Origin: Candidatus Binataceae bacterium
Lineage (GTDB): Bacteria > Desulfobacterota > Binatia > Binatales > Binataceae
Length of the DNA: 64,000 bases
Assembly (NCBI GenBank): GCA_036521875.1
Contig: DATDGX010000147.1
Location: forward strand, 190 to 64,189
Direction of reading: 5' to 3'
In this document: positions 9,896-28,117 of the stretch, piece after piece
Position numbering within the stretch: position 1 is the stretch's first letter
How the letters are laid out: every line of letters starts with the position of its first letter
Program-made: the position numbers and the translations under genes
The notes under the pieces: generated by a model
The model's database searches: none
Told to the model about the DNA's origin: nothing
What the model saw: only the letters and a program-made list of their open reading frames with translations

Positions 9896-10021
9896 TAAAA
9901 TATTCCTCCCGAAAAACCACTGCTTCGTTAAATTTACCTTCCGAATCCTTTGCCGACGGCCCATGTTTGTTGGTTAATTTCCGGCATGTCCATTGCTCCC
10001 CTTCCCATTGAGGGCCTTATT

Positions 10022-10651
10022 ATGCAGAACGAACACCGGAATTTCAGGGGTCGTTTCCCTTCTCCGAAAGCTCTGATACTGGGCGGCGCGGCAATTCTTC
10101 TCTTGCCTCTCTCGCTCGTCGCGTGCAGTGGGGGGACGATCATGAACCCGCTTTCGTCGGCGCAGCCCGCGAGCCCGGGTCAGGTCGCGAGCGCGACTGT
10201 AGTACCCCAGAACGCGACCGGCGAAAAAATCCTGTTACACGGATTGCAGTTCAATCCGGATGGTTCGGTAATCCGACGCTCTTCCGATCCGATTCTTGAT
10301 TCGGCGGCTGACACCTTGAAGAGGCGGCCTGATACCAAGGTCTATGTCGATTCGTACTGCGATCCGACTGGCGGCAAGAAGGTGAACTCTCGACTATCGG
10401 GAGATCGCGCCATCGCCGTCGCGACTTATCTCCAACATAAAGGAATCGCTTCCGACCGCCTGGTTCCGCGCGGATTCGGCGCCACGGATTTTGTCGCGAG
10501 CAATGCCACCGCCGACGGGCGTGAGCAGAATCGCCGCGTCGAGCTGAAGCTGGTGCCGATCAGCCAACAGGCGAGTGCATCGAGTCCGAACGATTCGCTG
10601 TCGCATCGATTGTACTCACGCCTGTTCGGCAGTTCGTCTCAGGGTTCGTAA
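10022..10651 (+). CDS. OmpA-family lipoprotein
   Basis: Start ATG 10022 (MQNEHRNF...); signal peptide with lipobox LVACSG; C-terminal OmpA_C-like domain (YVDSYCDPTGGKKVNSRLSGDRA..V, NRRVEL). Confidence 0.8.
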   Translation: MQNEHRNFRGRFPSPKALILGGAAILLLPLSLVACSGGTIMNPLSSAQPASPGQVASATVVPQNATGEKILLHGLQFNPDGSVIRRSSDPILDSAADTLKRRPDTKVYVDSYCDPTGGKKVNSRLSGDRAIAVATYLQHKGIASDRLVPRGFGATDFVASNATADGREQNRRVELKLVPISQQASASSPNDSLSHRLYSRLFGSSSQGS

Positions 10652-10853
10652 GGCACGTCGCATCGGTTTATAGTAACCGATTCAAATACTCAGTACTGAA
10701 CACCGGGAGCCGGCACGCCGCCGGCTCCCGGTGCATTTGGATATTGCTATTGGTGCCGGAGCCGCTTCCCTGACGCGTCGTCTTGCCGCAGACTCAACGT
10801 CGGAGTCGCGCAAGTTAGGAGTCGCGACAGTTTGCAGGAAGGCGAAGGCAACT

Positions 10854-11897
10854 TTGAAACTCTCGATAGTCGATCAATCGCCGGTACCGGCCGGGTCCAC
10901 GCCGGCGGATGCGCTGCACAACACGATCGATCTCGCGCGCGTGGCCGAGCGGCTCGGCTACGAGCGCTACTGGATCGCCGAGCATCACTCGACCGCCGCT
11001 TTCGCGAGCCCGGCGCCCGAGATTCTTCTCGCCAGAGTGGGTGCCGAGACTTCGACTATTCGCATCGGCTCGGGCGGCGTGCTGTTGCCGCACTACAGTC
11101 CGATGAAGGTGGCGGAGACATTCCGGATGCTTCACGCGCTGTACCCGGGCCGCATCGACCTCGGCATCGGGCGCGCGCCCGGCGGCACTCCGCTCGACAC
11201 CTATGCCTTGCGGCGCGACCGCGGCGAGGAATCGCCCGCCGACGACTTCCCGAAACAGTTGATGGAGCTGCTCGCATTTCTGCATGGCGGCTTCCGGTCC
11301 GATCACCCGTTCAGCCGGATCGAGCTCTCGCCCGCGATGCCCGGAGCACCGGTAGTGTGGATGCTCGGCTCGAGCATGTGGAGCGCGGCAGCCGCGGCGC
11401 AAGTGGGCCTGCCGTATGCGTTCGCGCACTTCATCGATCCGCAGCCAACCCGCAACGCGATCGAGTATTATCGCTCGCACTTCCTCCGCTCGGACGAGCT
11501 CGCCGAGCCCAACGCGATCGTGTCGGTCGGCGCAATCTGCGCCGATACCGAGGCCGAGGCGCAGCGCCTGTTCGCGAGCGTGCGGCTGTTCGGCCGCCGC
11601 ATCCGGACGGGCAGGGCGCGCGGCCCGATCCCGACGCCGGAAGAAGCGCTCGAGGAACTGGGCTCGGAGACCGGACCGACGCGGCCCGAAACCGGCGAAT
11701 GGCCGCGCATCTTCGTCGGCACTTGCGAGCAGATTCGCGATCAGCTCATCGACATGGCCAGCGTGCTTCACGTCGAAGAGGTGATGGTGGTGACGGTGGT
11801 GCACGACCACCAGGCGCGCATCCGCTCCTACCAGCTACTCGCGGAGGCTTTCGATCTGAAGCCGCGCGCCGAGCCCGCGCCGATCGCGCCGAAATAG
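10854..11897 (+). CDS. LLM-class flavin-dependent oxidoreductase (luciferase-like monooxygenase)
   Basis: LKLSIVDQSP...YERYWIAEHH...IRIGSGGVLLPHYSPMKVAE is the typical N-terminal signature. Start set at TTG 10854 with GAAGG RBS; the track ORF 10731.. is an upstream extension with no ATG near the conserved N-terminus. Confidence 0.75.
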   Translation: MKLSIVDQSPVPAGSTPADALHNTIDLARVAERLGYERYWIAEHHSTAAFASPAPEILLARVGAETSTIRIGSGGVLLPHYSPMKVAETFRMLHALYPGRIDLGIGRAPGGTPLDTYALRRDRGEESPADDFPKQLMELLAFLHGGFRSDHPFSRIELSPAMPGAPVVWMLGSSMWSAAAAAQVGLPYAFAHFIDPQPTRNAIEYYRSHFLRSDELAEPNAIVSVGAICADTEAEAQRLFASVRLFGRRIRTGRARGPIPTPEEALEELGSETGPTRPETGEWPRIFVGTCEQIRDQLIDMASVLHVEEVMVVTVVHDHQARIRSYQLLAEAFDLKPRAEPAPIAPK

Positions 11898-11988
11898 CCG
11901 GCGACCTCGTGGATGCGCGCCTTGTGCGGCCGCGGAAATTCCTCTCGCAGTCCGGACGGCGATCGCGACACCGATCGCGTGCGAAGAC

Positions 11989-12414
11989 TTACAGCAGGCG
12001 AGTATCCTCCGCCGGTTGATCGAACCGATCATGGCGGCCATCGGCATATCTGATCGGTCCCGCCGCGAGCTCGTTGGGATCGGCGTCATCGAGCGACGCA
12101 ACCGAGACGAAGTAAAACCTGCCCCCCATCGATTCGTGCTCCCCCCACCCGAAGGCGCGGACGCCGCACGTTCTGCAGAAGTGGTAGTGCAGGAACGCGC
12201 CGGGCCGGCCCGGAGGCACCCACTGATATTCCGCCTGCGCGTCAGCTCCCGCGAGCAGGCGAAAGCGATCCGCAGGCTTCACGAACACAAACCACGCGCG
12301 CGACTTGGTGCACATCGAGCAGTTGCACTTATTGGTGCCCGCGCTGAGATCGATGTCGGCCTGGAAGCGTACGGCGCCGCAATGACAGCTTCCCGAGTAG
12401 GTTTTCAAAGCCAC
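11989..12414 (-). CDS. GFA-family protein (glutathione-dependent formaldehyde-activating / CENP-V-like Zn-ribbon)
   Basis: YSGSCHCGAVRF...CNCSMC...C.TCG zinc-binding Cys pattern. Proposed start GTG 12412-12414 (MALKTYSGSCHCG) with GGAGGA RBS 6 nt upstream (12421-12426); the ATG at 12427-12429 would place the RBS inside the coding sequence. Confidence 0.75.
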   Translation of the reverse strand: MALKTYSGSCHCGAVRFQADIDLSAGTNKCNCSMCTKSRAWFVFVKPADRFRLLAGADAQAEYQWVPPGRPGAFLHYHFCRTCGVRAFGWGEHESMGGRFYFVSVASLDDADPNELAAGPIRYADGRHDRFDQPAEDTRLL

Positions 12415-12555
12415 GGTTGGTCCTCCCATGCGCACCGCGCGGTCCGAGGTGAGCCAGCGCGGCGCGCCGCTTCTGGTCGAAGAGCAGCACGCGAATTGCC
12501 CTGCACCAGCCATCCATTACCCCGCGGAGCCGACGCGGGCAATCTCGAATGAAGA
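12400..12555 (-). repeat. Copy A of about 150-bp direct repeat (GFA 5' end plus upstream leader)
   Basis: Near-identical to 17327-17500 apart from a 20-nt divergent patch (12452-12471) and a roughly 30-nt indel. Confidence 0.85.
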
Positions 12556-12986
12556 TTCCCGCGACTTCCTTGTAGGAGCTGTGTGTAGATTAGATTCGAT
12601 CCAGCCATCGACAACGGTCTTGCTGGATCAGCTTGGGAGCCAACAACGGAAATCACCGCGAACCAACGGCGATTCTTTTCTCTACGGATCCGACGATCTC
12701 TCGAATGTTGCGCCAGTAACGGGCATCTTCTCGCCAAGGTAATTTCCCGTGACACCGATGTTTCTAATCCCCCTTGCTCCGCCACCGAGTCGCAGCGTTC
12801 TGGCTTCTCTTCGACCGACCCTCCAGAGAGCGCCCTTTTTCGGGCTTGCGTGTGAATTCACGGTTGGCGTGGCACTCGCAGAGAGTAAGATGTTTGCGCT
12901 CTCCGCGAAAATGAGCCACTTTTCTCTTCAGCAACACGGAATCAGAGGCATTACCCGTTGTCGATCTGGGGTTGAGATAGAGGCTC

Positions 12987-13376
12987 ATGATCGTCGAAAA
13001 CGATTTGGCTTCCAGCAGCACACGGATGGTTATTTTTTGGGGACCAGGCGTGCTCGCGCTGGTCTTCGCCGCGCAGCTCGGCTGGTGGGGACACACGATC
13101 GGCTGGACGGCGGGACTGCTCTGGCTTGCGGCTATCTGCCTGTGGAACAGCGCTCGCTGCCGAAGAGTTCACTGCATCTTCACCGGCCCGTTTTTCCTCG
13201 CCATGGCGGTTGTCACTCTGCTCGTGGGCTTCAGGGTTTTCTCGCTGGGAGACAGTGCGTGGAAACTGCTGGGCGATACGATTCTGATTGGCGGTATTGT
13301 TCTCTGCTTCGGTTCGGAACTGATTTGGGGCCGCTACTGGCGGAGCGTGCAAAGGGAGCCCAACGCCAGCACCTAA
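12987..13376 (+). CDS. Hypothetical 4-TM membrane protein
   Basis: 129-aa ORF with four hydrophobic helices and a CRRVHC..TGPFF motif. Sits in a lower-GC patch and is divergently oriented from GFA. No family recognised. Confidence 0.35.
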   Translation: MIVENDLASSSTRMVIFWGPGVLALVFAAQLGWWGHTIGWTAGLLWLAAICLWNSARCRRVHCIFTGPFFLAMAVVTLLVGFRVFSLGDSAWKLLGDTILIGGIVLCFGSELIWGRYWRSVQREPNAST

Positions 13377-13603
13377 TTGCTTGGATCGGTAAACAGCATG
13401 CGCAGCGCGCGGAGTCTCATCGCTCTACTCCGGCGTCCGGCTTTTTCCGTCGCGCTTTTGCATCGGCGCGGTCAGAGAGTCCTTAGAGGGCTCTTTTGGT
13501 TACATGCGACACATGAGCGCGACGTACCGAATGACCAACAGTGAATCGGAGCATTACCCAATCGATGGCGGAAGAGCGCGCAATCAAGTTGAACGTCACT
13601 CGG

Positions 13604-13657
13604 CGGCGGCGAAGTTCGACCTCGAGTTGGTGTTCACGCACCAGGATATGCGGATGA
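13604..13657. repeat. Inverted repeat, left arm (about 54 bp)
   Basis: Its reverse complement matches 15041-15096 at about 49/55 positions (core ATCCGCATnTCCTGnTGCGTGAACACCAACTCGAGGTCGAACT). Confidence 0.85.
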
Positions 13658-13723
13658 CGAAACGGGATAATAGCGCTGCGGTGTCGCGGCGCGCGGCGGA
13701 CCTGACGCTTCAACTCTCGCGGA

Positions 13724-14866
13724 CTAGGCTATTGCGCGGATCGATTCGACCACCGATCGGCGTACGGAACCAATCGCGGGGACCAATCCAGCCACTGCCC
13801 CGATGGCAATCGACATAACAAAGGCCTGCGCAACCACCAATGGCGAAACAATCGCGAGCAGATCTACCGGTCCCAGCGGCAGAAATGCGAACGGCAGAAC
13901 CTTCGCGACAAGAAAAGTTGCCGCGCACCCAAGCGCGCCTCCCACGACGCCCAAGAACGCTGATTCGGCGACCGTCAGGCACAGGACCAGCGCGGGACTG
14001 AAACCGATCGCACGCATGACGGCGATTTCAGTATGCCTCTCGCGCACGGCTATCACCACGGTGTTGAGCGCGACCAATGCGACCGCGGCCACGACGAGGA
14101 TAGCCATCGCTCGGAGCATCGCGAAAAGCGTGTCGAAGTTGACGAAGTTGGCAAACCACGAGGCCTCGGATTGGCTATGAGTCTCCGCCGCCGAGTTTGA
14201 GAATATCTCATCGATCGCAGCGATCGCCGAGGGCACCGAATCGGCGCGATCGAGCATCACGTGATATGCATTCACGGACGGGCGCCCAGCCAGCGACCGT
14301 TCCAGGTAGTCGCGGCGAAAGAGCAAAGCGTCAGGCGGCGCGCTGGCACCCAAGGTGTCGGCGATTCGCAGTGTCACATCCACTGGCACAATGGTGCCCT
14401 TGAGGATGATCTGCTCGCCGACGTGCCAGCCGTACTTTCGCAGCATCGCCGCCGGTACGAGACATGCCATCGTGCTGGCGCGGAACTCGCTCGCCCGCTT
14501 CGGAGTGACGCCCCAATCCGGCCACATCAATTCCGCCTGGTCCGCGTCGACCGCGATTCCGAGTTGGTCACTGGGACTACGGTAGACTCCGCCGAAGTAC
14601 ACTAGTCCCGAAGCTGCAACGACGTGCGGCGCCGCGAGAATTTTTCGCTTGTACGAATCGGGCAGAGGATTGAAAAATCCCGAGGCGCTCATCACCGCGA
14701 TTCGCCGTGCGGAATCGGGCGTGCTCAGCATTCGGCGGGTGACGTTTGGCAGGCTTGACAGCGACGAGTAAGTGAACGCCGCCAAGGCAATCGCCAAGGT
14801 GGTGAGAACCGTCCGTCGCGGACTGCGGCGCAGGTTCCTCCACACCAGCATCGCAAACTTCATCAC
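13724..14866 (-). CDS. ABC transporter permease, FtsX/MacB-like (orphan; no ATPase gene adjacent)
   Basis: 380 aa; N-terminal TM, large periplasmic domain, C-terminal FtsX 3-4 TM bundle (AVMRAIGFSPALV...). Confidence 0.8.
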   Translation of the reverse strand: MMKFAMLVWRNLRRSPRRTVLTTLAIALAAFTYSSLSSLPNVTRRMLSTPDSARRIAVMSASGFFNPLPDSYKRKILAAPHVVAASGLVYFGGVYRSPSDQLGIAVDADQAELMWPDWGVTPKRASEFRASTMACLVPAAMLRKYGWHVGEQIILKGTIVPVDVTLRIADTLGASAPPDALLFRRDYLERSLAGRPSVNAYHVMLDRADSVPSAIAAIDEIFSNSAAETHSQSEASWFANFVNFDTLFAMLRAMAILVVAAVALVALNTVVIAVRERHTEIAVMRAIGFSPALVLCLTVAESAFLGVVGGALGCAATFLVAKVLPFAFLPLGPVDLLAIVSPLVVAQAFVMSIAIGAVAGLVPAIGSVRRSVVESIRAIA

Positions 14867-14869
14867 TGG

Positions 14870-15577
14870 CTAACCAGCCGCGTCACTCGGCGGCAGCGCG
14901 GAGCTTGATCGAATCGAGCCCCGAGCGCGCTTCGTCCATCGCTTGTTGGCGGAGGCCGAAATACAAAGCGATCGCGCGATCCGCCTTGAACAGATGATAG
15001 GACGAGATAACGTCAGGATGGTTGCGCTGCTGGCTCGCGAGCATCCGCATGTCCTGATGCGTGAACACCAACTCGAGGTCGAACTCCGCAGCCAGCCACG
15101 CAACGGTTCCGCCGCCCAGCCATCCCGCAGGAATGAAACGGGATAGTCACGCTGCACGGTGCTGGTTCGCGGGCCTGGATCCGCCGCTTCGGGAAATCTC
15201 GGGATTTCCGTGGCGGAATCACCGTACCAATAACAGACGAGACCGTGCGCCTCGCGGACCTGGCGCGTCGGCAAATCGAAACCGCCCGGCACCGGCTGGC
15301 CATCGCGTTGGCGGGAATCAGCACGCAGCGGCCGGCGGAATCGAAGCGCAGTCCATGAAACGGACATACCTAGGCAGTCGTCGCGGACCCAGCCCAGGCT
15401 TAGTTGCGGCGCGCGATGCGGGCAGCGGTCGGTCATGCACACGGCGGCGCCGCTCCGGTCGCGCCACAACACCAGTCGCTCGCTCAGGCGCGTGATACCG
15501 ACCGGTTTGCGCCGTTTCAATTTCGTGCTGTCGAAGATCGGATACCACTGATTAAGAGTCAAATCGTTGGGAGTCAT
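14870..15577 (-). pseudogene. Rieske [2Fe-2S] non-heme-iron oxygenase alpha-subunit remnant (VanA-like), frameshifted and C-terminally truncated
   Basis: First Rieske box CPHRAPQLSLG is intact. Second box CPFHGLRFDSAGRCV is only readable in the +1 frame (about 15330-15390), and the frame then returns (GQPVPGGFDLPTRQV..GLVCYWYGD). No catalytic domain with the Fe-binding His/Asp motif follows before the FtsX gene. Confidence 0.6.
15041..15096. repeat. Inverted repeat, right arm (about 56 bp)
   Basis: Partner of 13604-13657. Lies inside the 3' part of the Rieske remnant, 175 nt upstream of the FtsX start. Confidence 0.85.
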
Positions 15578-16236
15578 GGGTCCTCCTTTGATAGTGCGCT
15601 GGCGCGAGGAAACAATCCACGCAGGACGATCGTGGTGCCGCGGTAGATTTCGTTGCGCACCATCTCGGCGCTGATCGCGTCGTTCATCAGATAGGCGGTC
15701 AACCAGGTGAAGCAGACGCTGTAGAGGACCGTCGCCACGGGCATCGGTTCTGTGTCAGATGCGAGAACGCCGTTGCTCCGGTATCGCTCGAGCAGCGTTT
15801 CGAGCTGAGAAACCAGGTGCGCGTCAGCTTCGAACAGGCGCTGCCCTACCGTGGATGGCTCCGCGATCGCGGCGCCGAAAAGTTCGCGCCATAGCCGCCG
15901 ATCCTCACGCGTGAAGTCGTCAAGAAAAATTCCGGTCAACGCGGACACCGCCGCGACCGGGTCGCGCGTAGGGTCGTCGAGGATCTTCCGCCCGCGAGCA
16001 AGCACCGATTCGGTTTCACCCCGGATGATCGCGAACAGCAGCGCGGACTTGGAGGGGAAGTAGTTGTAGATGGTGCCGACCGCGAGGCCCGCGCGCTCGG
16101 CGACGTCTTCCATCGCGGTCTCGGCGTAGCTTTTTCTGGCGAACAATTTCCGCGCTGCCGCGACAATACGGCACTCGCGATCCTGCTTCTGGCGGTCGCG
16201 GAATCCAGGTGGCCGCTCAGCTAAAGATGAATCCAT
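15574..16236 (-). CDS. TetR/AcrR-family transcriptional regulator
   Basis: N-terminal HTH (AARKLFARKSYAETAMEDVAERAGLAVGTIYNYFPSKSALL). Stop overlaps the start of the Rieske remnant. Confidence 0.85.
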   Translation of the reverse strand: MDSSLAERPPGFRDRQKQDRECRIVAAARKLFARKSYAETAMEDVAERAGLAVGTIYNYFPSKSALLFAIIRGETESVLARGRKILDDPTRDPVAAVSALTGIFLDDFTREDRRLWRELFGAAIAEPSTVGQRLFEADAHLVSQLETLLERYRSNGVLASDTEPMPVATVLYSVCFTWLTAYLMNDAISAEMVRNEIYRGTTIVLRGLFPRASALSKEDP

Positions 16237-17326
16237 TCATTGTGTTTTTAGCGCCGATCGGCGCCCATGTCAAGAAACCTGAATCGATTCATCTTTGGTC
16301 GTAAGACCACTTCGGGTGGCGCTCACGGTGAGCGAGGTGGGAAGCGCGGCGTCATCTTCGACGAAGAACATGACTGTATCTGATTAAACGGTGTGCGCGC
16401 GATTCGTCCCCATCTTTAGCGCCGGCGCCGTAGCGGTTGTTCATGCAAATCGCGCGACTCCGATCGCCGAATCGCTGGCCAGCTTCTCGACCAGCTCGTC
16501 GCCGCCATGCGCTTCGACTCCGCACCGCACTTGGAGGCGATGGCGCTGCAATTGAGCGCAGTAATGTAACCCGGTGAAGAACCATCACCGCAGAGCTTAG
16601 AGGTTGGTCGGTTGCCACTCAACTCGCTAGAAGAGGTACCGTTCCTGTTTTCGAGGGCTCAGCGGCTCGCACGCTGAATTCCTGGCGGAGGGAGGTGAAT
16701 TCGAACTCGCGGTACCGATTCTGAAACTTCCAGACGACAGCTCTTAGTGATGATTTTCGAAACTGCTCGACGAGCGACCGGGACGCCCTTTCCTCAAGTC
16801 TACCAACAACGGCTCATCAGAATGTCGTCGAACTAAACAACCAGCTGTCTTGGGTTGAGATTGGGCGGGCGGTTGGATTCACGATTTTCTGTGCTCCTCT
16901 TCGGCTTCGCGCGAAATCAGTCTCCACTTTCTCCTACGAGTCGGAACCTGCCTACTGAGCGATAGGAATTGAGCTGAGTCAGTGTCGAATTGTTCGCCCG
17001 ACTCGTCTTCTTGCGCTTCGTCCATGCGTCGCAATCGATCCATCAGTTCAGCTTTTGACTGGGGAGACGGGTCCGGCTCGCGGGTCATTCGCTTTCGCCA
17101 GTCGGGTAGAAAGCGGTCTCATAGCCGCGACGTGAGAAAGTCATCGTCGAGCGGAGGGTGCGGAGCGAAACTATAGATGCCTCTGTCGAGCACCTCCGGC
17201 GGCAGGGCCGAGTAATACTCATTGAGCTTCGCGAGGTCCGCCTTCAACTCGTCACCTGGAATGAACGCCTGTCGGTCGGTCAGGAACAGGGGAACGGTGC
17301 GCATGTGAAGTCCATCGTCGGAGGGA

Positions 17327-17500
17327 GGTTTTCAAAGCCACGGTTGGTCCTCCAATGCGCACCGCGCGGTCCGAGGCGAACCGCCGCCGCGCGCTGCTTC
17401 TGGTCGAAGAGCAGCACGCGAATTGCCCTGCACCAGCCATCCATTACCCCGCGGAGTTGACGCGGGCAATCGCGGACTTCAGTAACTGATTGCGTTGCGC
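17327..17500 (-). repeat. Copy B of about 150-bp direct repeat (truncated duplicate of GFA 5' end)
   Basis: Retains GGAGGA-N6-GTG and the first codons VALKT of GFA, then diverges. Sits in a gene-poor region. Confidence 0.85.
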
Positions 17501-17839
17501 GCTGAATGAAGATCTCGCGCAGGCGGACATTGTCGGCCTTGATGGTGGGCGATCCGCCGCCCCAGTCGTCGCCGGGGGTGGGCTGGCGGTAGCGCTGCTT
17601 GCCCAGTCGCAGCTCCCACAGGTGCTGATTGTGCCTACCCATGGCGGCCTGGACGACGTCATGCACCTGAAGTTGACTTTGAGGGCTGGGCGCAGGAACG
17701 ATGGCTTCAAGGGGCGAAGGGTGCCGGCGGCGGAAGGGGGCGCAGTCTCGCGTCGCTTGTCCGCGTGGAGCGGTCGTGATGGAAGCTCCGCGATGCTAGT
17801 CAGAACCACGGATGGGCGCGCCTGAACTCGCCCCACTGT

Positions 17840-18232
17840 ATGCGAGTGCAAGGAGACGAGATGGACGAGGACCACCAGTCGATCGATGAACAAACGGTGA
17901 GGAAGCTCGATCAGTCATGGAATCAGGTCTACCTACGTAACGATCGCTCCGCGTTTGCCGAAATTCTGGCCGACGACTTCTGTGTGACTCTCGCCGACGG
18001 TCGAACGGGAGGCAAGGTCGATATGATGAAACCTACCCCAGAGGGAGCGAAGGTGAGCTTCAGCGAACCTGGCGTCCAGATTTTCTCTCCTACCGCGGTG
18101 ACCCGAGGGCGGGTTCGAATCGAGCATCCCGACCGGGTGGTGGATCAGCGGTACGTGCGCGTGTACTCGAAGCGGGCCAAAGGTTGGCAGGCAGTGTGCG
18201 TATTCGTCTTCCCGGTCGGTGAGGAAGTGTAG
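17840..18232 (+). CDS. Nuclear transport factor 2 (SnoaL/DUF4440-like) family protein
   Basis: VRKLDQSWNQVYLRNDRSAFAEILADDFCVTLADG is the usual N-terminal signature of DUF4440/SnoaL-like proteins; 130 aa. Confidence 0.6.
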   Translation: MRVQGDEMDEDHQSIDEQTVRKLDQSWNQVYLRNDRSAFAEILADDFCVTLADGRTGGKVDMMKPTPEGAKVSFSEPGVQIFSPTAVTRGRVRIEHPDRVVDQRYVRVYSKRAKGWQAVCVFVFPVGEEV

Positions 18233-18721
18233 CGGCTCTTTGATTTCGTGAGAGCTTCCGATGATGAGAACGTAGCCAGACTCAACCGGCAAGAACGCTA
18301 TCAAGAAGCTGCTGGAGCTGAAGGTATCAGTAAGAGCTGTGGTTCATAAGAAAGAGCCCAGCGTTGGAATGAGTCATCGGGTTCATGGGACCTGGCATCC
18401 CGCTTCCGGTAACGCTCACGGCTCCGTTCAGAGTAGCCTTCGCCGGTAAAGTCTTTTGCCGCGCAACAGGGGCACTCTTGGGGCGGGCTGTTAGAGCGCG
18501 CTCAGCCGCGCCGCTGAGTGCAGCAGTCTGTTCAGATAGAGAACTTTGACGAATCGTTTCCAGGGAGTCGCGGCGCCGGCGACTACGCTTGTCCTGATCG
18601 AACCCAACAGAAATTCGCTGGCGCTCAGCGCGTTGCGATGCTTTGCTAAATCCGGCGTGTGCGGCTAACTAGTTCCGAGAGCTACACCGATCGCGTCGCG
18701 ATCAAATCAGGCGGAGAAATT

Positions 18722-19729
18722 ATGGCAGACATACGTCCGTTGCGATCCGGCTGTCCAATACGATTCGGCATTTTGGGCGCGGCGCTTATCGCGCCCAACG
18801 CTCTGATCAAGCCCGCGCAGGAGGTGGCCGATGCCGAGGTGGTCGCGGTCGCGGCGCGCGATCGGGCGCGCGCGGATGAATTCGCGAAGACCAATGGCAT
18901 CCCGCGCGTGCACGCGACTTATGCCGACCTGCTGAGCGACCCCGAGCTTGACGTGATCTACAATCCGCTCCCCAACTCGCTCCATTGCGAATGGACCATC
19001 CGCGCGTTGCGTGCGGGCAAGCATGTGCTTTGCGAGAAACCGATGGCCTCGAACGCGGCTGAGGCGGAGCGCATGTTTCATGCCGCGCAGGAAACCGGTT
19101 TGTTCCTGGGCGAGGCATTCCACTACCGTTATCATCCTCTGGCAGAACGCGTGCGCTCGCTTATCCGCGATGGGGCGCTCGGCCGTCTTACCCATCTCGA
19201 GGGAAATTTTGCGGTTCCGATTCCGCCGACCAATATCCGCTTCGACTGGAGCCTTGCCGGCGGCGCCACGATGGACCTGGGATGCTATCCACTTCATATG
19301 GTGCACGATTTCTCCGGGATGACGCCGCGAGTGGTGGGTGCCACGGCGAAAACGGGGCCGCCCAACATCGACGTCACGATGGAGGTCGAGCTGGAGCTTC
19401 CGGGCGGCATCCACGCGCGCATGAGCTGCTCGATGGCGGCGGACGCGCGGCTCAACGCCACCTTCACCGCGCGCGGCGATCGCGGCGAGCTCAACGTGAT
19501 TAATCCGGTCGCGCCGCAGATGGGCAATCAGCTCACCGTGAAGACCAGTGCCGGAGAGAAGCAGGAAACGGTTCCCGGCGACGCGAGCTACACCTGTCAG
19601 TTGCGTGCGTTCGTCGCGGCGCTCCGCGGCGAAGGCAAGTTTCCCACCGACGGCGTGGAGGCAATCGTCAACATGCGCATCATCGACGACGTCTATCGCG
19701 CGGCCGGGCTGCCGCCGCGCGGGACCTGA
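18722..19729 (+). CDS. Gfo/Idh/MocA-family NAD(P)-dependent oxidoreductase
   Basis: IRFGILGAALIA Rossmann N-terminus, EKP motif (HVLCEKPMA), C-terminal alpha/beta domain; start ATG 18722 (MADIRPL). Confidence 0.85.
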   Translation: MADIRPLRSGCPIRFGILGAALIAPNALIKPAQEVADAEVVAVAARDRARADEFAKTNGIPRVHATYADLLSDPELDVIYNPLPNSLHCEWTIRALRAGKHVLCEKPMASNAAEAERMFHAAQETGLFLGEAFHYRYHPLAERVRSLIRDGALGRLTHLEGNFAVPIPPTNIRFDWSLAGGATMDLGCYPLHMVHDFSGMTPRVVGATAKTGPPNIDVTMEVELELPGGIHARMSCSMAADARLNATFTARGDRGELNVINPVAPQMGNQLTVKTSAGEKQETVPGDASYTCQLRAFVAALRGEGKFPTDGVEAIVNMRIIDDVYRAAGLPPRGT

Positions 19730-19773
19730 GCTTTCGCGCTCACCGATTCAAGTTCACGCCAAGGAGTAGGCGA

Positions 19774-20658
19774 ATGGCCAGCGAGCAATTCAAGAAGGTA
19801 CTCGAGATTATCAAGTCGCAGCCGGCGAAACCGGATGCCACCGTCGAGCAGCGGCGCGCCGGCATGGAGCGTATCAGCGAGCGTGTCGCCAAAGACGTTG
19901 ACTGTACGCCGGTCGACGCGGGCGGAGTCAGCGCCGAATGGATCGTGCCGCCCGGGGTGATCGGCGATCGCGTCATTTTGTATCTGCACGGGGGCGGCTA
20001 CGTGATGGGCTCGATCAATTCGCATCGCGCAATGATCGCGAGAATCGCGCGCGCCTCGAATGCGCGCGCACTCGCGCTCGACTATCGGCTGGGGCCCGAG
20101 CATCCGTTCCCCGCCGCGGTCGAAGACGTTGTCACTGCGTATCGCTGGCTGCTCGCGCACGCCTACCTACCCGGCAGGATCATTATCGCGGGTGATTCCG
20201 CGGGCGGCGGACTGACGCTCGCAGCGCTGCTGGCGCTTCGCGACATGGGTGAGCGGCTCCCCGCTGCCGCGGTTCCGATTTCACCGTGGACTGACCTGGA
20301 AGGCACGGGAGCGTCGGCGACTACGAAGGCCGCGCGCGATCCGATGGTGCAGATGGAGTCGCTGAACTCGTCGGCGAAAGCGTACCTTGGCGAGCAGGAT
20401 GCGAAAAATCCGCTGGCGTCGCCGCTGCACGGCGATTTCCGCGGACTCCCGCCGATGCTCATCCAGGTTGGCGAGGCCGAGATTCTGCTCGACGACGCGA
20501 CGCGGGTGGCGGAGCGCGCCAAGGCGGCCGGCGTCGAGGTCGAGCTGGAAGTGTGGGACGAGATGGTTCACGTGTGGCACGTATTCGCGAAGCTGCTACC
20601 CGAGGGACAACAGGCGATCGACAAGATCGGAAAATTCGTGATCGCGCACACCTCGTGA
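19774..20658 (+). CDS. Alpha/beta hydrolase, HSL-type esterase/lipase
   Basis: HGGGY oxyanion-hole motif and GDSAGG nucleophile elbow; 294 aa. Confidence 0.85.
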   Translation: MASEQFKKVLEIIKSQPAKPDATVEQRRAGMERISERVAKDVDCTPVDAGGVSAEWIVPPGVIGDRVILYLHGGGYVMGSINSHRAMIARIARASNARALALDYRLGPEHPFPAAVEDVVTAYRWLLAHAYLPGRIIIAGDSAGGGLTLAALLALRDMGERLPAAAVPISPWTDLEGTGASATTKAARDPMVQMESLNSSAKAYLGEQDAKNPLASPLHGDFRGLPPMLIQVGEAEILLDDATRVAERAKAAGVEVELEVWDEMVHVWHVFAKLLPEGQQAIDKIGKFVIAHTS

Positions 20659-20718
20659 AGCGAGGCCGGCGCTGATAGCGCTATCGCGCGAGGCGCCAGG
20701 ATTGAGGCAGGCCAGGGT

Positions 20719-22188
20719 CTACTTGACCTGGGCGTCGAACACGGCGGTGTCGATTTTGCCGGCGCGCTTGAACTGCAGGAAAATCCGGTAGAGTCCCGGC
20801 TGCGGAAAGCCATAGGGCATCGAGATCTCCGGCGACACGCTCGCCGGCGCGCCGGGCGGATTCGTTTCCGACGACATATTCATTTCCGCCATCGGCGCCG
20901 CGGCTGATGCGCTGTTATCGGCGCTCGCCATCATCAGCGCCGCCATCGGCACCGAACCCGACGGATGGATATGCGCGAACACGCTGCGGTCGCTGCGGAT
21001 TATTTCCGCATGCGCCGCCATCCCCATGTACGGCTCGAGATCGGTCGCCGGTCTGCCGTTCTGATCCTGGACCATGAAGCGCAGAATCATCGGCGTATTG
21101 GCTTGAAGCGGCGCCGCATCGCGAGCCCATCGCACGCGAGTCCCGTCCGCCAGCACCTGCGAGGCGCCGGTTGCCTCGCCGACCGGCTTTGCCGATCCTT
21201 CCGAGTCGTCTCCGCTGAGCGGCGCTCCGGAAATTTGCGGCAAGTCGATGCTGCCGACCAGCGTCCACGGAAAGCCCGACTTGTCGACGACATCAGCGAA
21301 GACGTCGTAATGCCCGGGTTCGAGCGACGGCAGATTGGTGGCGAACGCGCCGCCCTTGCCGGTCTCATCCGGATGCAGATGCAATAGGCGGTCGAGTGCG
21401 GGCGTCCGCACCAGGAAGAGATGCATCAGGTGACCGTGATCGGGGACCAGTTGATCCATCACCTTGTACTCGAGCCACGCTTTGTCCGACGGGGAGGGGC
21501 GGAGCGTGAGATGATTTGCGCCCTCAAGTGAGAGGGAGAGCCGGGGCGGTCTGAAGAGCATCGTGGTCGCGAGGTAGTCGCGCGCGTCGGCGTCCCACCA
21601 CGCGAAGCCAAGGTAGAACAGCGCCGCGACCAGCACCGTCATGACCGCCATCGCCCGCCGGCCGCTCCGCCGCGATTGCGGCGTCGCGAGCGCTCCAGGA
21701 GCCAGGCCCGCGTCGCGCGCCGCCGCGCCCACGATCGCGATCGCGCCGAGTCCCAGGCCGATGGCGAGCACCAGCAGGATGGCGCCGAGCCATCGCGGCA
21801 TCGGTAGCATCCGGCGCGCGACGCTCGGCACCGGCACCGACATATCGGCGCTGCCGCGCGTTCCGCGCACCTTGATCAGCACCCGCAGCGAACCATATTC
21901 CATCAGCCACAGCGACGCGGTGAAGAAATTTGGGTCGGTCTTCGAGCGCGTCGCGAGATCGGGAACCGGAGCGTACTTCGATCCGGGACCGGTGAGCCGC
22001 GCGACCGCGGTGCTGATCTCGCGCGCGTCGTCGGAGCTGGCGCGAATCTCGATATCGGCAACGCCCGGAATCACCTGCGGCACTCGCACGGTCACGAACA
22101 GGTGGTACGGACCCGCATCGCCTTCATAGAAAACGTCGGGACTGCCGACGTGCGCAGAGGCGGGGCTCGCGAGAAAGAACCTGACCAT
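20719..22188 (-). CDS. Secreted, membrane-anchored protein with YcnI/DUF1775-like N-terminal domain and C-terminal domain carrying two HxHP motifs (putative copper-binding)
   Basis: Predicted signal cleavage ASA|HV gives a mature N-terminal His (HVGSPDVFYEGDAGPYHLFVTVRVP, compare YcnI HVSVKP...Y..KVP). Two TM helices follow, then a domain with GHLMHLFLV...LHLHP and AHAEII...AHIHPSG. Start uncertain (M at 22188 or an upstream non-ATG codon); the track ORF extends to 22371 and would overlap the upstream gene by 95 nt. Confidence 0.4.
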   Translation of the reverse strand: MVRFFLASPASAHVGSPDVFYEGDAGPYHLFVTVRVPQVIPGVADIEIRASSDDAREISTAVARLTGPGSKYAPVPDLATRSKTDPNFFTASLWLMEYGSLRVLIKVRGTRGSADMSVPVPSVARRMLPMPRWLGAILLVLAIGLGLGAIAIVGAAARDAGLAPGALATPQSRRSGRRAMAVMTVLVAALFYLGFAWWDADARDYLATTMLFRPPRLSLSLEGANHLTLRPSPSDKAWLEYKVMDQLVPDHGHLMHLFLVRTPALDRLLHLHPDETGKGGAFATNLPSLEPGHYDVFADVVDKSGFPWTLVGSIDLPQISGAPLSGDDSEGSAKPVGEATGASQVLADGTRVRWARDAAPLQANTPMILRFMVQDQNGRPATDLEPYMGMAAHAEIIRSDRSVFAHIHPSGSVPMAALMMASADNSASAAAPMAEMNMSSETNPPGAPASVSPEISMPYGFPQPGLYRIFLQFKRAGKIDTAVFDAQVK

Positions 22189-22276
22189 CGCGACCGCGGC
22201 CAGCGTGAGCACAACGGCGGATCGCGCGGAAATGTTTTTCGGAATCGACGGAATAGACGACACGCGAAGCTTTCGT

Positions 22277-23482
22277 CTAGCGCTGAACCTTACGCATCCA
22301 GTGTCCCAGCCCCATTCCGATCGTGCAGAAAATGATCGACGCGAGCACTGCCAGCGCCATCCCCTCGACAAATGCGGCGTGAGTCTTGGCGGGGTCGGCG
22401 AACCGGTAAGGATTGTAGAGCAGGTTCGCCGGGTCGTTGTACGAGAAGTACATCGTTCCGAAAACCCAGTTGCGTGATGCGGGCGAGATCAGAAAATCGG
22501 CGAACGGCCATTGCACCGCGAACAGCGCGGCGACGAAGACGCATCCCGCGAGCAGCGCGGATTTAATGCCGCCCCAGCGCTCGCCCATCTTGACCCTCAG
22601 CAGATCGAGCACGAACGCGGGCACGATTATCAGCACCGGAAACCACAGCGGAACCATGTGCGTGATGTGCTGGTAGACGGGCCCGAGTTTCGGCTGCGCC
22701 GGGAACAACGGGAAGATCCAGAGCGCGGCCAAAAACGCCGCAGTGTAAATTGCCGCCATCGTGGTCGCGGGCCATCGAGAGGTGGAGACGCAGGAGACCG
22801 CGATCAGCACGAGCGGAAAACCCTCCGCGACCGATCGGTAGAACATCGGGTTGTGCATGAATTCCATCGGCGTCGATTCGAGGTTGAACAACGCCGCCTG
22901 CACGATCTCGATCGCGCCGACGTAGAGCAGCATCCGATCGAGTTTCGCGCGGCGCGCTCCGGTGGCGCGATTCACCTGCGCGCAGACCAGCAGCAGCGCG
23001 CCGAGACTGATCATTCCGATCCCTGCCGATAGCATCGAATGCGGCAGGCTCACGATCTTGACATCGAGTCCGTAGGCGCTGTGCCACCAGTTGTCGAAGG
23101 GCGCGGAGGTGAGCATCGCGATTCCGCCCCACGCCGCGAGGAAGCATCCCAGCGGCCCGCGAAATCCCCAAATCGAAACCGAAGTTTCCCTGGACTCAGC
23201 CGAGGAACCAAACGTGCTTGTCAAAATCATGTATCCACTCGCGACTCCGGCGAGCACGCCGCCCAGATAAATCGCCATGTGCGCGGGAGTCCAGAACGAG
23301 TCGCGGCCGATCGAGATGTGCCACGAGATATCCCAGTAGCCGCCGAAGGCGGAAGAGGTCACCGCCGCGGCCAGGCACCATACGTACCATGGGATGGCGG
23401 CAGCGCGGGTGGCCTCGATTGCGCGGCCGGCGACGCGCGGCCGACGCTCGAGCGTGGCAGCCTGCAGGACTGCGTTCCCCAT
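22277..23482 (-). CDS. Polytopic integral membrane protein of unknown function (at least 10 TM; possible CopD/CtaG-like)
   Basis: 401 aa, almost entirely hydrophobic helices, W/H-rich segment GYWDISWHISIGRDSFWTPAHMAIYLGG. Second gene of a three-gene minus-strand operon. Confidence 0.5.
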   Translation of the reverse strand: MGNAVLQAATLERRPRVAGRAIEATRAAAIPWYVWCLAAAVTSSAFGGYWDISWHISIGRDSFWTPAHMAIYLGGVLAGVASGYMILTSTFGSSAESRETSVSIWGFRGPLGCFLAAWGGIAMLTSAPFDNWWHSAYGLDVKIVSLPHSMLSAGIGMISLGALLLVCAQVNRATGARRAKLDRMLLYVGAIEIVQAALFNLESTPMEFMHNPMFYRSVAEGFPLVLIAVSCVSTSRWPATTMAAIYTAAFLAALWIFPLFPAQPKLGPVYQHITHMVPLWFPVLIIVPAFVLDLLRVKMGERWGGIKSALLAGCVFVAALFAVQWPFADFLISPASRNWVFGTMYFSYNDPANLLYNPYRFADPAKTHAAFVEGMALAVLASIIFCTIGMGLGHWMRKVQR

Positions 23483-23586
23483 GGTGAAGACTCCTTCGGC
23501 CTTTGCGACTATCCAGTCGTATAGCCTACTGAATAGCTACTCGCGAGTGTACCTCATTTGAAGTGCGGCGCGTATCGAAAGAGTAC

Positions 23587-24015
23587 CTAACTGAGGCGCT
23601 CGTCATGATAGGCAAGATACAGCGCAGTGCCGACCGATCCGGTGAGAGAAATCGCGAGATAGATCAGGATGAAGTTCACCGGCGGCCGCGGTCCGCCATG
23701 CAGGAACCAGAACAGCACCAGGTTCACCGGGACATAAAACGCGTAGACCATCGCGAGCGGCAGCACCCATCGTCGCATCGTCCACAGTCCGTACGCATAC
23801 GTGGCGAGTATCAGTCCGAACAAGGGGCCCAGAATGGCGTTGGCTCCGACGGTTTGCGTCTGGACTCCGAAAATAACCAACCCCTTGGTCGGGTCATGCA
23901 TGTTCTGGAAAAATTTGGTGAAGTCCGAGAGCGCAAGGATGGCAAGCAGCACCGCCATCACCGAAAGAAAAATTCCGCGGTCCGTCGTGGCGTGGCGGTT
24001 CTCTGACGCGTCCAT
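23587..24015 (-). CDS. Small 4-TM membrane protein of unknown function
   Basis: Start at MDASENRH...; four hydrophobic helices. First gene of the 24.0-20.7 kb operon. Confidence 0.4.
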   Translation of the reverse strand: MDASENRHATTDRGIFLSVMAVLLAILALSDFTKFFQNMHDPTKGLVIFGVQTQTVGANAILGPLFGLILATYAYGLWTMRRWVLPLAMVYAFYVPVNLVLFWFLHGGPRPPVNFILIYLAISLTGSVGTALYLAYHDERLS

Positions 24016-24103
24016 ATGATGCCTCCCGTCGTGTGCTTCGCGTTTCAGCCGGACTGATTCCGCGAGCCGACGATGCACTATACTAGCTAGTCGTACTCGT
24101 GCG

Positions 24104-25315: not shown

Positions 25316-25459
25316 TCATGATGGGCATTGCGCGAATCGATTCTAGCAGAGCAGATTGAACTAGGTAGACGGATTGGCCTCGCGCGCGCTGTGAGCCATA
25401 GCGACGGCATTTCGATAGACTGATGGAGTTACGATTGGTCCATCAAGGAGCCCAATAAA

Positions 25460-26479: not shown

Positions 26480-26492
26480 GCGGGTTTCGGCG

Positions 26493-28028: not shown

Positions 28029-28117
28029 TCAGGTAGGCACGGCATCGAGGCCGAACTGCGCGGTCAGTTTCGCGCGCGCGGTATAGGTACAAAAGCGGTC
28101 GGATATAGTATGAAAGG

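What the first reader, a model, noticed from the sequence alone, without database searches (positions are those of the whole stretch)
12400..17500. 150-bp direct repeats 4.9 kb apart, identical except for a 20-nt hypervariable patch, bracketing the most decayed part of the window
Copies at 12400-12555 and 17327-17500 match base for base across about 130 nt, but differ at 12 of 20 positions in one central patch (12452-12471 versus 17373-17392), plus a roughly 30-nt indel near one end. Both copies carry the GFA ribosome-binding site, GTG start and first five codons, but only copy A continues into a GFA gene. The interval between them holds a low-GC orphan membrane-protein gene, the inverted-repeat-flanked FtsX permease, a frameshifted Rieske gene, a TetR gene and 1.6 kb without credible genes. 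The localised hypervariability inside otherwise identical repeats is unusual. Three explanations fit: a gene-conversion tract, a structured RNA leader (the conserved flank folds as a 9-bp stem gcugcucuuc/gaagcggc) with a variable loop, or recombination-prone repeats delimiting an islet.
Basis: seen in the sequence. Interest (0 to 1): 0.55.

Follow-up and report, generated by a model that had tools for sequence, protein, structure and literature searches.

The report
Duplicated gene-leader fragment in patchwork islet
The two near-identical 150-base repeats are real, but the second is most likely a leftover partial copy of the region in front of one gene, stitched among other gene fragments in a strain-specific 6.7-kb insertion; there is no sign of a regulatory RNA or a mobile-element boundary.

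Summary
The repeat is real. Window 12399-12547 matches 17326-17474 at 139 of 149 bases. Past a 30-nt indel it extends to 12556 and 17513. Independent assemblies confirm both copies. The "12 of 20" patch is a register error. In register there are 6 differences in 19 nt, and the clustering is still non-random (p about 0.01).

All relevant genes are on the minus strand. The repeated unit U holds about 140 nt of orphan non-coding DNA, the GFA ribosome-binding site, the GTG start and the first 16 nt of the GFA coding sequence. Copy B is wedged between a 159-nt internal fragment of a PRiA4_ORF3 gene and a 20-nt inverted copy of part of U.

A syntenic relative (L014) has LLM and Gfo/Idh/MocA genes 32 nt apart where the window carries 6.74 kb (11894-18634). 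Both copies lie inside this islet and do not delimit it.

Nothing supports a structured RNA. Rfam gives no hit, folding z-scores are about 0, and 0 of 50 predicted pairs covary. GFA orthologues lack U. The substitutions are not adenine-specific, so it is not a DGR pair. No further copies were found in the collections that could be searched.

Best reading: a rearrangement relic, and a substrate for a 4.9-kb deletion. Interest is low.

The parts
11894..18634 (.). Strain-specific islet of 6.74 kb. The syntenic relative L014 has only 32 nt here, between the LLM and Gfo/Idh/MocA genes.
   Evidence: blastn: L014 9121-11040 matches window 9924-11893, and L014 11073-21044 matches window 18635-28597. 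G+C is 0.54-0.64 inside the islet and 0.64-0.70 outside.
11989..12414 (-). GFA-family gene with a GTG start at 12414.
   Evidence: Pfam PF04828, E 9.6e-14. The exact protein is HEY6419840.1 of a Candidatus Binataceae MAG. Orthologues are homologous only from the start codon onward.
12399..12556 (-). Repeat copy A (U_A, 158 nt): orphan non-coding DNA, then GGAGGA, GTG and 13 further coding nt of GFA.
   Evidence: L013 confirms the linkage of the A-type patch to GFA.
12450..12468 (-). Patch in copy A: 6 of 19 positions differ from copy B, 5 of them within 12450-12461. It contains the perfect 12-nt palindrome GCGGCGCGCCGC.
   Evidence: Difference list, clustering test. The palindrome was read directly from the sequence.
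12557..17325 (.). Interval Z between the copies. It holds low-GC non-coding DNA, an orphan membrane ORF (12987-13376, +), an FtsX/MacB-type permease (13724-14866, -), a broken Rieske/VanA-type oxygenase gene (14870-15577, -), TetR (15574-16236, -), and 69-aa and 61-aa ORFs (16879-17088 and 17119-17304, -).
   Evidence: Pfam results. L012 is 99.5% identical over 12920-16597, and L001 covers 16575-17841. No recombinase, transposase or reverse-transcriptase domain was found in any ORF tested.
17295..17314 (.). 20-nt inverted copy of the Shine-Dalgarno region of U (partner arm 17345-17364). The pair is centred on the U_B/Z junction, and this arm supplies the ATGCGCACC start of the 61-aa ORF.
   Evidence: Pair I13. 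Only 6 such inverted-repeat loci occur in 64 kb, and one is centred at 17329.
17326..17513 (-). Repeat copy B (U_B, 188 nt): the same unit plus 30 extra nt (about 17475-17504). It ends after GTGGCTTTGAAAACCT and does not continue into a GFA gene.
17377..17395 (-). Patch in copy B (GCGCGCGGCGGCGGTTCGCC type). A related strain (L001) carries the same version.
17507..17665 (-). Internal 159-nt fragment of a PRiA4_ORF3 (PF07929) gene, about codons 40-91 of 206. It abuts the 5' end of U_B.
   Evidence: Pfam, homologues P0002-P0015. DNA homology to L010 and L008 (82-84%) is limited to 17665-17507.
17840..18232 (+). DUF4440 gene, the last gene of the islet.
   Evidence: Pfam PF14534, E 5e-11. It is absent from this position in L014.
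18617..18722 (+). Orthologue of the LLM to Gfo/Idh/MocA spacer of L014, marking the right edge of the islet. The left-edge stretch 11898-11988 resembles the same spacer only weakly.
   Evidence: Local alignment score 146 for the right edge. The left edge scores 41 against 21.6 +/- 4.1 for shuffles (1 of 1000 shuffles reach it; 9 of 2842 genomic controls).

Best explanation
What the unit is. All of this is read on the minus strand. The repeated unit U is the 5' region of the GFA gene. It consists of about 140 nt of orphan non-coding DNA, followed by the ribosome-binding site GGAGGA, the GTG start and the first 16 nt of coding sequence.

Copy A is the working copy. It supplies GFA's translation start. 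That it also holds the promoter is inferred, not shown.

Copy B is a secondary, partial copy made by a duplicative rearrangement inside a 6.74-kb strain-specific islet. That islet is a patchwork of whole genes and short gene fragments:
- a 159-nt internal PRiA4_ORF3 fragment;
- the 188-nt U_B;
- a 20-nt inverted copy of U centred on the junction;
- a 52-nt inverted copy of an oxygenase gene fragment.

Most likely mechanism (inferred). Illegitimate or template-switch repair copied short stretches of nearby DNA into a junction. Under this reading copy B has no function of its own. Its RBS and GTG now open a 29-codon junk frame and can pair with the adjacent inverted copy.

The patch. The 5-6 clustered substitutions most likely stem from one complex event. 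That could be error-prone synthesis during the copying, or a short conversion tract from an unsampled copy.

Consequence. The two copies are a substrate for RecA-dependent loop-out of 4.93 kb.
For: - The repeat is real, occurs only twice in the window, and is confirmed by independent assemblies.
- The 16 coding nt in both copies are ancestral GFA sequence. Orthologues read ATGGCTTTGAAAACCTAC, and their upstream regions are unrelated. The GFA-linked copy is therefore the source, and U is not a conserved GFA leader.
- The 5' end of copy B abuts a gene fragment truncated on both sides. PRiA4_ORF3 homology covers only 17665-17507.
- The repeat boundaries are sharp. The flanks beyond them are no more similar than shuffled sequence.
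- An inverted 20-nt copy of U is centred on the 3' junction of copy B. Only 6 such loci exist in 64 kb. A 52-nt inverted gene-fragment copy lies in the same islet.
- The whole 11894-18634 region is absent from the syntenic relative L014.
- No recombinase, transposase or RT domain was found in any islet ORF tested.
- There is no RNA signal. No frame of U is coding.
- The patch clustering is significant.
- In the related strain L001, copy B equals copy A everywhere except the 5-nt patch core, one boundary base and one private change. The copies are therefore young, and the patch is a discrete event.
Against: - The direction and mechanism of the duplication are inferred from junction anatomy only. 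No relative showing an intermediate state was found.
- The alternative order of events is not excluded. An ancestral PRiA4'-U-GFA arrangement could have been split by insertion of Z with duplication of U. This is hinted at by ATCTTCA being shared between the end of the PRiA4 homology and copy A.
- The rest of the MAG could not be searched, so further copies may exist.
- Public collections could be scanned only with exact 20-22-mers, which misses diverged copies.
- No transcript data are available.
Confidence: 0.68

Rival explanations
1. Z (12557-17325) is an inserted segment, and the two U copies are the duplicated target. The ancestral arrangement would be PRiA4'-U-GFA. Z would have entered either by single-crossover (Campbell-type) recombination of a circular molecule carrying a diverged U, or by a repair event that duplicated about 160-190 nt of target.
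For: - Each copy keeps only one 'native' flank: PRiA4' lies 5' of copy B, and GFA lies 3' of copy A.
- Copy A shares ATCTTCATTC with copy B, and its first 7 nt coincide with the end of the PRiA4 homology.
- The islet as a whole may also be flanked by a weak duplicate of its target spacer.
- A diverged donor U would explain the differences between the copies.
Against: - The model requires the duplication boundary to fall within about 7 nt of the PRiA4'/R junction by chance.
- A single crossover gives differences on one side of the exchange point, not an internal 12-nt patch.
- Z carries no integrase, and no inverted repeats mark its ends.
- No genome or contig with the contiguous PRiA4'-U-GFA arrangement was found.
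Confidence: 0.2
2. U is a cis-regulatory RNA leader or small RNA, made of a conserved scaffold with a variable loop (the patch).
For: - A local hairpin (GCGUGCUGCUCU...AGAAGCGGCGCGC) is predicted in both copies.
- One difference changes a G-U pair to an A-U pair.
- U lies directly 5' of a start codon.
Against: - Rfam gives nothing, even at E<=1.
- Folding z-scores are -0.05 and -0.16.
- 0 of 50 pairs show a compensatory change, 6 pairs are broken in one sequence, and the covariation term is positive.
- L001's private G>A breaks the hairpin.
- GFA orthologues lack U.
- Only two copies exist, and one of them leads into no gene.
Confidence: 0.05
3. The pair is an artefact of metagenome assembly: strain variants of one locus wrongly laid out as two copies.
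For: - The source is a MAG.
- The A-side upstream join (12557-12920) is seen only in the MAG contig.
Against: - Three independent contigs from three datasets reproduce the B junctions on both sides (L001), the A patch linked to GFA (L013), and the B patch linked to the 61-aa ORF (L018).
- Both Logan contigs stop at the shared k-mer boundary, which shows that both variants co-occur in each run.
- Copy A has its own unique 5' junction, lacking the 30 nt.
Confidence: 0.04
4. The pair is a template repeat and variable repeat of a diversity-generating retroelement, or another targeted hypermutation system.
For: Two repeats of about 150 nt are near-identical apart from a localised variable stretch.
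Against: - The differences (minus strand, A/B) are A/C, G/A, G/A, G/A, C/G, C/G, T/C, C/T, A/G and G/T. They are not confined to adenines of either copy on either strand.
- No reverse transcriptase was found among the islet ORFs tested.
- Neither copy lies at the 3' end of a target gene.
- The flanking DNA is syntenic housekeeping sequence.
Confidence: 0.01

Closest known systems
Dispersed segmental duplication or 'filler' DNA at illegitimate-recombination and template-switch junctions (own knowledge of such repair products; not a curated family)
   Same: - A short copy (188 nt) of nearby DNA is stitched between other short gene fragments, with sharp boundaries.
- The possible microhomology at the join is ATC.TCA.
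- Short inverted copies lie at or near the junctions (20 nt and 52 nt).
- Clustered substitutions occur in one copy.
   Different: - The mechanism was not observed, and no intermediate genomes are available.
- The rearrangement could equally be read as an insertion with a long target duplication.
attL/attR or Campbell-type direct repeats flanking integrated elements
   Same: - Direct repeats bracket a block of accessory, partly decayed genes with lower G+C.
- The repeats could mediate excision or deletion by homologous recombination.
   Different: - There is no integrase or other recombinase, and no tRNA or tmRNA.
- The repeats lie inside the 6.74-kb islet defined by comparison with L014, not at its edges.
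- The repeated unit spans a gene start and a pseudogene junction.
Riboswitches and 5' leader RNAs (Rfam families)
   Same: The position is immediately 5' of a start codon, and the length is about 140 nt.
   Different: - There is no Rfam match.
- Stability does not exceed that of shuffled sequence, and there is no covariation.
- The sequence is not conserved upstream of orthologous GFA genes.
DGR template/variable repeat pairs
   Same: A pair of repeats of about 150 nt differs in a localised stretch.
   Different: - The substitutions are not adenine-specific.
- There is no reverse transcriptase.
- There is no target-gene C-terminus.
REP, MITE or other interspersed repeat families
   Same: A short non-coding repeat occurs more than once.
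   Different: - There are two copies in 64 kb, and none in GTDB species representatives, JGI metagenome contigs or IMG/VR by exact 20-22-mer.
- There are no terminal inverted repeats.
- The unit includes 16 nt of a coding sequence.

Membership tests
Structured cis-regulatory RNA (riboswitch or leader) | Match to a curated covariance model | tested here: not met
   Rfam 15 gave 0 hits at gathering score on the whole window and 0 hits at E<=1 on 11800-18700.
Structured cis-regulatory RNA (riboswitch or leader) | Thermodynamic stability beyond that expected from composition | tested here: not met
   z is -0.05 for copy A (88 of 200 shuffles fold as well) and -0.16 for copy B (81 of 200).
Structured cis-regulatory RNA (riboswitch or leader) | Base pairs kept through compensatory changes | tested here: inconclusive
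   Only three sequences were available. 0 of 50 pairs have a two-sided change, 3 have a one-sided change, 6 are broken in one sequence, and the covariation term is +1.34.
Structured cis-regulatory RNA (riboswitch or leader) | Conserved upstream of orthologous genes | tested here: not met
   GFA orthologues L005, L006 and L007 (86-88% DNA identity) align only from the start codon onward.
Integrative element with attL/attR | Repeats sit at the boundaries of the inserted DNA | tested here: not met
   The empty site in L014 puts the boundaries at 11894 and 18634. The repeats are at 12399-12556 and 17326-17513.
Integrative element with attL/attR | Integrase or recombinase gene inside the element | tested here: not met
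   Pfam scans of the islet ORFs tested found GFA, FtsX, MacB_PCD, Rieske, VanA_C (weak), TetR, PRiA4_ORF3 and DUF4440, and no recombinase.
Diversity-generating retroelement (TR/VR) | Differences confined to adenines of the template repeat | tested here: not met
   The ten differences involve all four bases in both copies.
Diversity-generating retroelement (TR/VR) | Reverse transcriptase gene nearby | tested here: not met
   No RVT domain was found among the islet ORFs tested. The flanks are syntenic with L014.
Interspersed repeat family (REP/MITE) | Many copies per genome and copies in related genomes | tested here: inconclusive
   The window holds two copies. Exact 20-22-mers gave only chance hits in genome contigs and metagenome contigs and none in viral contigs. 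The rest of this MAG could not be searched.
Transposon target-site duplication | Short duplication (2-15 bp) flanking an element with terminal inverted repeats and a transposase | tested here: not met
   The duplicate is 158 or 188 nt. No inverted repeats lie at 12557 and 17325, and no transposase was found.

The most novel reading that the evidence does not exclude
U is a portable non-coding module: a conserved scaffold of about 130 nt around a 12-19-nt specificity patch. It would be transcribed as a regulatory or guide-like RNA whose patch differs between copies, and it would be copied together with a ribosome-binding site to new genes. The evidence does not strictly exclude this. Only three sequences exist, and the rest of the genome and any transcripts could not be examined.
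Probability: 0.03. Interest if true: 0.55.

Novelty: new member of a known kind. Interest (0 to 1): 0.15.

Why it matters
It matters little beyond this genome. The region is a clean, independently confirmed example of how a small accessory islet in an uncultured Binataceae lineage is assembled from whole genes and 20-190-nt gene fragments. The pair of direct repeats predicts a 4.9-kb deletion polymorphism.

For annotation it has two practical consequences. The 61-aa ORF (HEY6419845.1) starts in an inverted scrap of the GFA leader. The PRiA4_ORF3-like ORF is a pseudogene fragment fused to non-coding DNA.

If the template-switch reading is right, the clustered substitutions would be a footprint of error-prone repair synthesis. 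Taken alone this is a minor point.

Tried and rejected
1. Coding origin of U, rejected.
- All six reading frames give no Pfam hit at E<=1.
- The minus-strand frame fused to PRiA4' finds only the same locus in a related strain (P0001). All true PRiA4_ORF3 homologues stop aligning at 'VRLREI'.
- The DGW in U is not the DFGDGW motif of the family. DNA alignment to L008 and L010 ends at 17507.
- An exhaustive HMMER search of the + strand ORF 12428-12739 against 1.84 billion proteins gave one weak hit to a repeat protein, and that hit lies outside U.

2. Further copies of U, none found.
- The genome contigs 20-mer gave 3 stretches. The one inspected (L002) lies in an unrelated repeat-protein gene, and none of the three aligns to the window beyond that short seed.
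- Two metagenome-contig scans gave 0 hits and 1 chance hit.
- Viral contigs gave 0 hits. Sensitive blastn found no match in the plasmid or phage collections.

3. A donor for either patch version in the window: none within 3 mismatches.

4. DGR reading: rejected on the substitution spectrum.

5. Promoter and terminator scans around both copies found no sigma-70-like site and no terminator in U.

6. Similarity beyond the repeat boundaries: none.

7. An outgroup for the empty site: the next LLM relative (L015) is not syntenic. Whether the islet is an insertion here or a deletion in L014 therefore rests on L014 alone plus the islet's composition and decay.

8. Whether JGI sample 3300031708 is a metatranscriptome: a literature search found nothing.

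Full report
**Observation**

The repeat exists. The repeat finder reports 12399-12547 and 17326-17474 as 149 nt, gapless and 93% identical, with spacing 4927. It is the only long direct repeat in the 64-kb window. A 53-nt core occurs exactly twice, against 0 expected by chance.

Alignment shows that copy B has 30 extra nt at the minus-strand 5' end of the unit. Identity then resumes for ATCTTCATTC. The units are therefore 12399-12556 (158 nt) and 17326-17513 (188 nt).

In register there are 10 differences in the 149 nt. Six lie in 12450-12468, and five of those in 12450-12461. The clustering is nevertheless non-random, with p about 0.01 for window A versus B. For copy A versus the B copy of a related strain p is about 0.001.

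**Source and independent confirmation**

Exact-sequence look-up identifies the window as a 66.2-kb contig of a 'Candidatus Binataceae bacterium' MAG, covering proteins HEY6419840 to HEY6419845. Four independent contigs bear on the region.

- L001 (JGI 3300031708, 1264 nt) is 98.5% identical to 16575-17841. It carries copy B with both of its junctions.
- L012 (same sample) is 99.5% identical to 12920-16597.
- L013 (Logan ERR4661004) carries OmpA-LLM-GFA plus 84 nt of copy A, with the A-type patch.
- L018 (Logan ERR4661006) carries the 61-aa ORF plus copy B, with the B-type patch.

Both Logan contigs begin at the same base, 30 nt before the first A/B difference. That is what a de Bruijn graph branch produces when both variants are present in a run. 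The pair is therefore not an assembly artefact. Only the join 12557-12920 rests on the MAG contig alone.

**Anatomy**

All relevant genes are on the minus strand, and the order below follows that strand.

- Copy A runs straight into a GFA-family gene: GGAGGA, 6 nt, then GTG at 12414 (Pfam GFA).
- Copy B ends after GTGGCTTTGAAAACCT and is followed by unrelated sequence.
- The closest GFA orthologues (L005, L006, L007; 86-88% DNA identity) align to the window only from the start codon onward. They begin ATGGCTTTGAAAACCTAC, and their upstream regions are unrelated to U.

Two conclusions follow. The 16 coding nt in both copies are genuine GFA sequence, so copy B derives from a GFA-linked copy. And U is not a conserved GFA leader.

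Directly 5' of copy B lies a PRiA4_ORF3 (PF07929) remnant. Full-length homologues are 206 aa. DNA homology to two of them covers only 17665-17507, roughly codons 40-91. It ends at ...GAGATCTTCA, where U begins. The DGW encoded in U is not the family's DFGDGW motif, because both spacing and DNA similarity fail.

No reading frame of U looks like protein. Pfam gives nothing at E<=1 for all six frames. An exhaustive HMMER search of the + strand ORF gave one weak, repeat-driven hit that lies outside U. Beyond the boundaries of U, the flanks of the two copies are no more alike than shuffled sequence.

**The islet**

The closest syntenic relative found is L014, an 881-kb ENA contig whose LLM protein is 91% identical. 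Its gene order is OmpA, LLM, Gfo/Idh/MocA, abhydrolase and onward.

- blastn aligns L014 9121-11040 to window 9924-11893.
- It aligns L014 11073-21044 to window 18635-28597.

So 32 nt in L014 correspond to 6,741 nt in the window (11894-18634). This islet has lower G+C. It contains GFA, U_A, an orphan membrane ORF, an FtsX permease, a broken Rieske/VanA-type oxygenase gene, TetR, two small ORFs, U_B, the PRiA4 fragment and DUF4440. No recombinase, transposase or reverse-transcriptase domain was found, and the window has no tRNA.

Both repeat copies are internal to the islet. Copy A lies 0.5 kb from its left edge, and copy B lies 1.1 kb from its right edge. The right edge (18617-18722) is the orthologue of the L014 spacer. 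The 91 nt at the left edge resemble the same spacer only weakly (1 of 1000 shuffles, 9 of 2842 genomic controls).

A second, non-syntenic relative (L015) gave no outgroup. Insertion here versus deletion in L014 is therefore inferred from composition and decay.

**Junction signatures**

A 20-nt inverted copy of the Shine-Dalgarno region of U lies at 17295-17314, with its partner at 17345-17364. The match is 16 of 20 in the window. It is 17 of 20 against the copy-A version of the arm (pair I9), a version the related strain L001 shares at the one base that differs. The pair is centred at 17329, essentially on the U_B/Z junction at 17325/17326.

Only 6 inverted repeats of that quality occur in 64 kb. 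A chance landing within 10 nt of the junction is therefore about 0.002. This inverted scrap provides the ATGCGCACC start of the annotated 61-aa ORF.

The same islet holds a 52-nt inverted duplicate of an internal oxygenase-gene fragment, encoding AAEFDLELVFTHQDMRM with a weak VanA_C match. The two arms lie on either side of the FtsX gene.

The islet thus contains several short copied fragments, both direct and inverted, stitched together at sharp junctions.

**Tests of the RNA idea**

- Rfam gives nothing at gathering thresholds on the window and nothing at E<=1 on 11800-18700.
- Minimum free energies equal those of dinucleotide shuffles: z -0.05 for copy A and -0.16 for copy B.
- On copy A, copy B and L001's copy B, RNAalifold predicts 50 pairs. 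None has a compensatory change, six are broken in one sequence, and the covariation term is +1.34.
One difference turns a G-U pair into A-U, but L001's private G>A breaks a pair.
- No sigma-70-like promoter or intrinsic terminator was found in or next to U.

**Other readings**

The substitution spectrum excludes a DGR template/variable repeat pair, because all four bases change in both directions.

No donor for either patch version exists in the window.

Exact 20-22-mers of U found only chance matches in GTDB species representatives and JGI metagenome contigs and none in IMG/VR. Sensitive blastn found nothing in plasmids or phages. These searches miss diverged copies, and the rest of the MAG was not available.

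**Interpretation**

U_A is the 5' region of GFA and supplies its translation start. This is shown by position and by the RBS. That the promoter lies in it is inferred.

U_B is a secondary partial copy in a patchwork of fragments. I favour copying of U from the GFA locus into a junction during illegitimate or template-switch repair, for three reasons.

- U_B is bounded 5' by a doubly truncated gene fragment, with a possible ATC.TCA microhomology.
- It is bounded 3' by an inverted scrap of U itself.
- The islet shows another inverted fragment copy.

The alternative is that an ancestral PRiA4'-U-GFA was split by insertion of Z with duplication of U, of Campbell type. It is kept at about 0.2. It explains why each copy has one native flank. 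However, it needs the duplication boundary to coincide with the PRiA4'/U junction, and a single crossover does not produce an internal patch.

In L001, copy B equals copy A except for the 5-nt patch core, one boundary base and one private change. The window's copy B has four more changes, including a GG>AA tandem. The copies are therefore young, and the patch is best read as one complex event. That event could be error-prone synthesis during copying or a short conversion tract from an unsampled copy. Which of the two applies is unresolved.

Functionally, the main consequence is that the direct repeats can recombine to delete 4.93 kb.

**Verdict**

This is a real but ordinary feature. It is a duplicated junction fragment inside a small, decayed, strain-specific islet. 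It is not a structured RNA, not a mobile-element boundary and not a hypermutation cassette. Interest is 0.15.

Noticed in passing
window 11894-18634 versus L014 11041-11072: The whole GFA to DUF4440 block is a 6.74-kb islet absent from a syntenic relative (LLM protein 91% identical), where the LLM and Gfo/Idh/MocA genes are 32 nt apart. The left-edge stretch 11898-11988 weakly resembles the target spacer found at the right edge (18617-18722).
   Followed up: yes
window 13605-13656 and 15042-15093: A 52-nt inverted duplicate (92%) of an internal fragment of the Rieske/VanA-type oxygenase gene (AAEFDLELVFTHQDMRM) lies on both sides of the FtsX permease gene. The oxygenase gene itself is broken after its Rieske domain. 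This suggests an inversion or a template-switch event.
   Followed up: partly
window 17295-17314 / 17345-17364: A quasi-palindrome is centred on the U_B/Z junction. Its Z-side arm is an inverted copy of U's RBS region and provides the start codon of the annotated 61-aa ORF (HEY6419845.1), so that ORF is probably not a real gene. In an RNA the arms would pair across the RBS.
   Followed up: partly
window 16224-16292 (minus strand): The inverted repeat GATGAATC...GATTCATC brackets TTGACA-17 nt-TAAAAA immediately upstream of the TetR ATG at 16236. This is a candidate autoregulated promoter and operator with an almost leaderless transcript.
   Followed up: no
window 12542-12721 (+ strand ORF 12428-12739): The only hit among 1.84 billion representative proteins is a 2468-aa repeat protein (P0268, E 5.7e-7, six weak stretches of about 30% identity). 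It is probably spurious. Otherwise it is a scrap of a repeat-protein gene in the low-GC spacer upstream of copy A.
   Followed up: partly
window 17457-17458, 17395, 17354: Relative to both copy A and the B copy of strain L001, the window's copy B carries four extra substitutions on the minus strand in 149 nt: a GG>AA tandem, a G>A and a G>T. The rest of the L001 alignment differs by about 1%. The excess is suggestive but not significant.
   Followed up: partly
L010 4001-6620, L008 265-1688: Intact PRiA4_ORF3 homologues sit next to toxin-antitoxin genes (HigB/HTH_3, TumE/HVO_A0114) and, in L010, next to an IS110-family transposase. This fits an accessory or mobile-DNA origin for the fragment in the window.
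   Followed up: no
window 16458/16459 versus L012 3540-3547: An 8-nt indel lies in non-coding DNA between two strains that are 99.5% identical.
   Followed up: no
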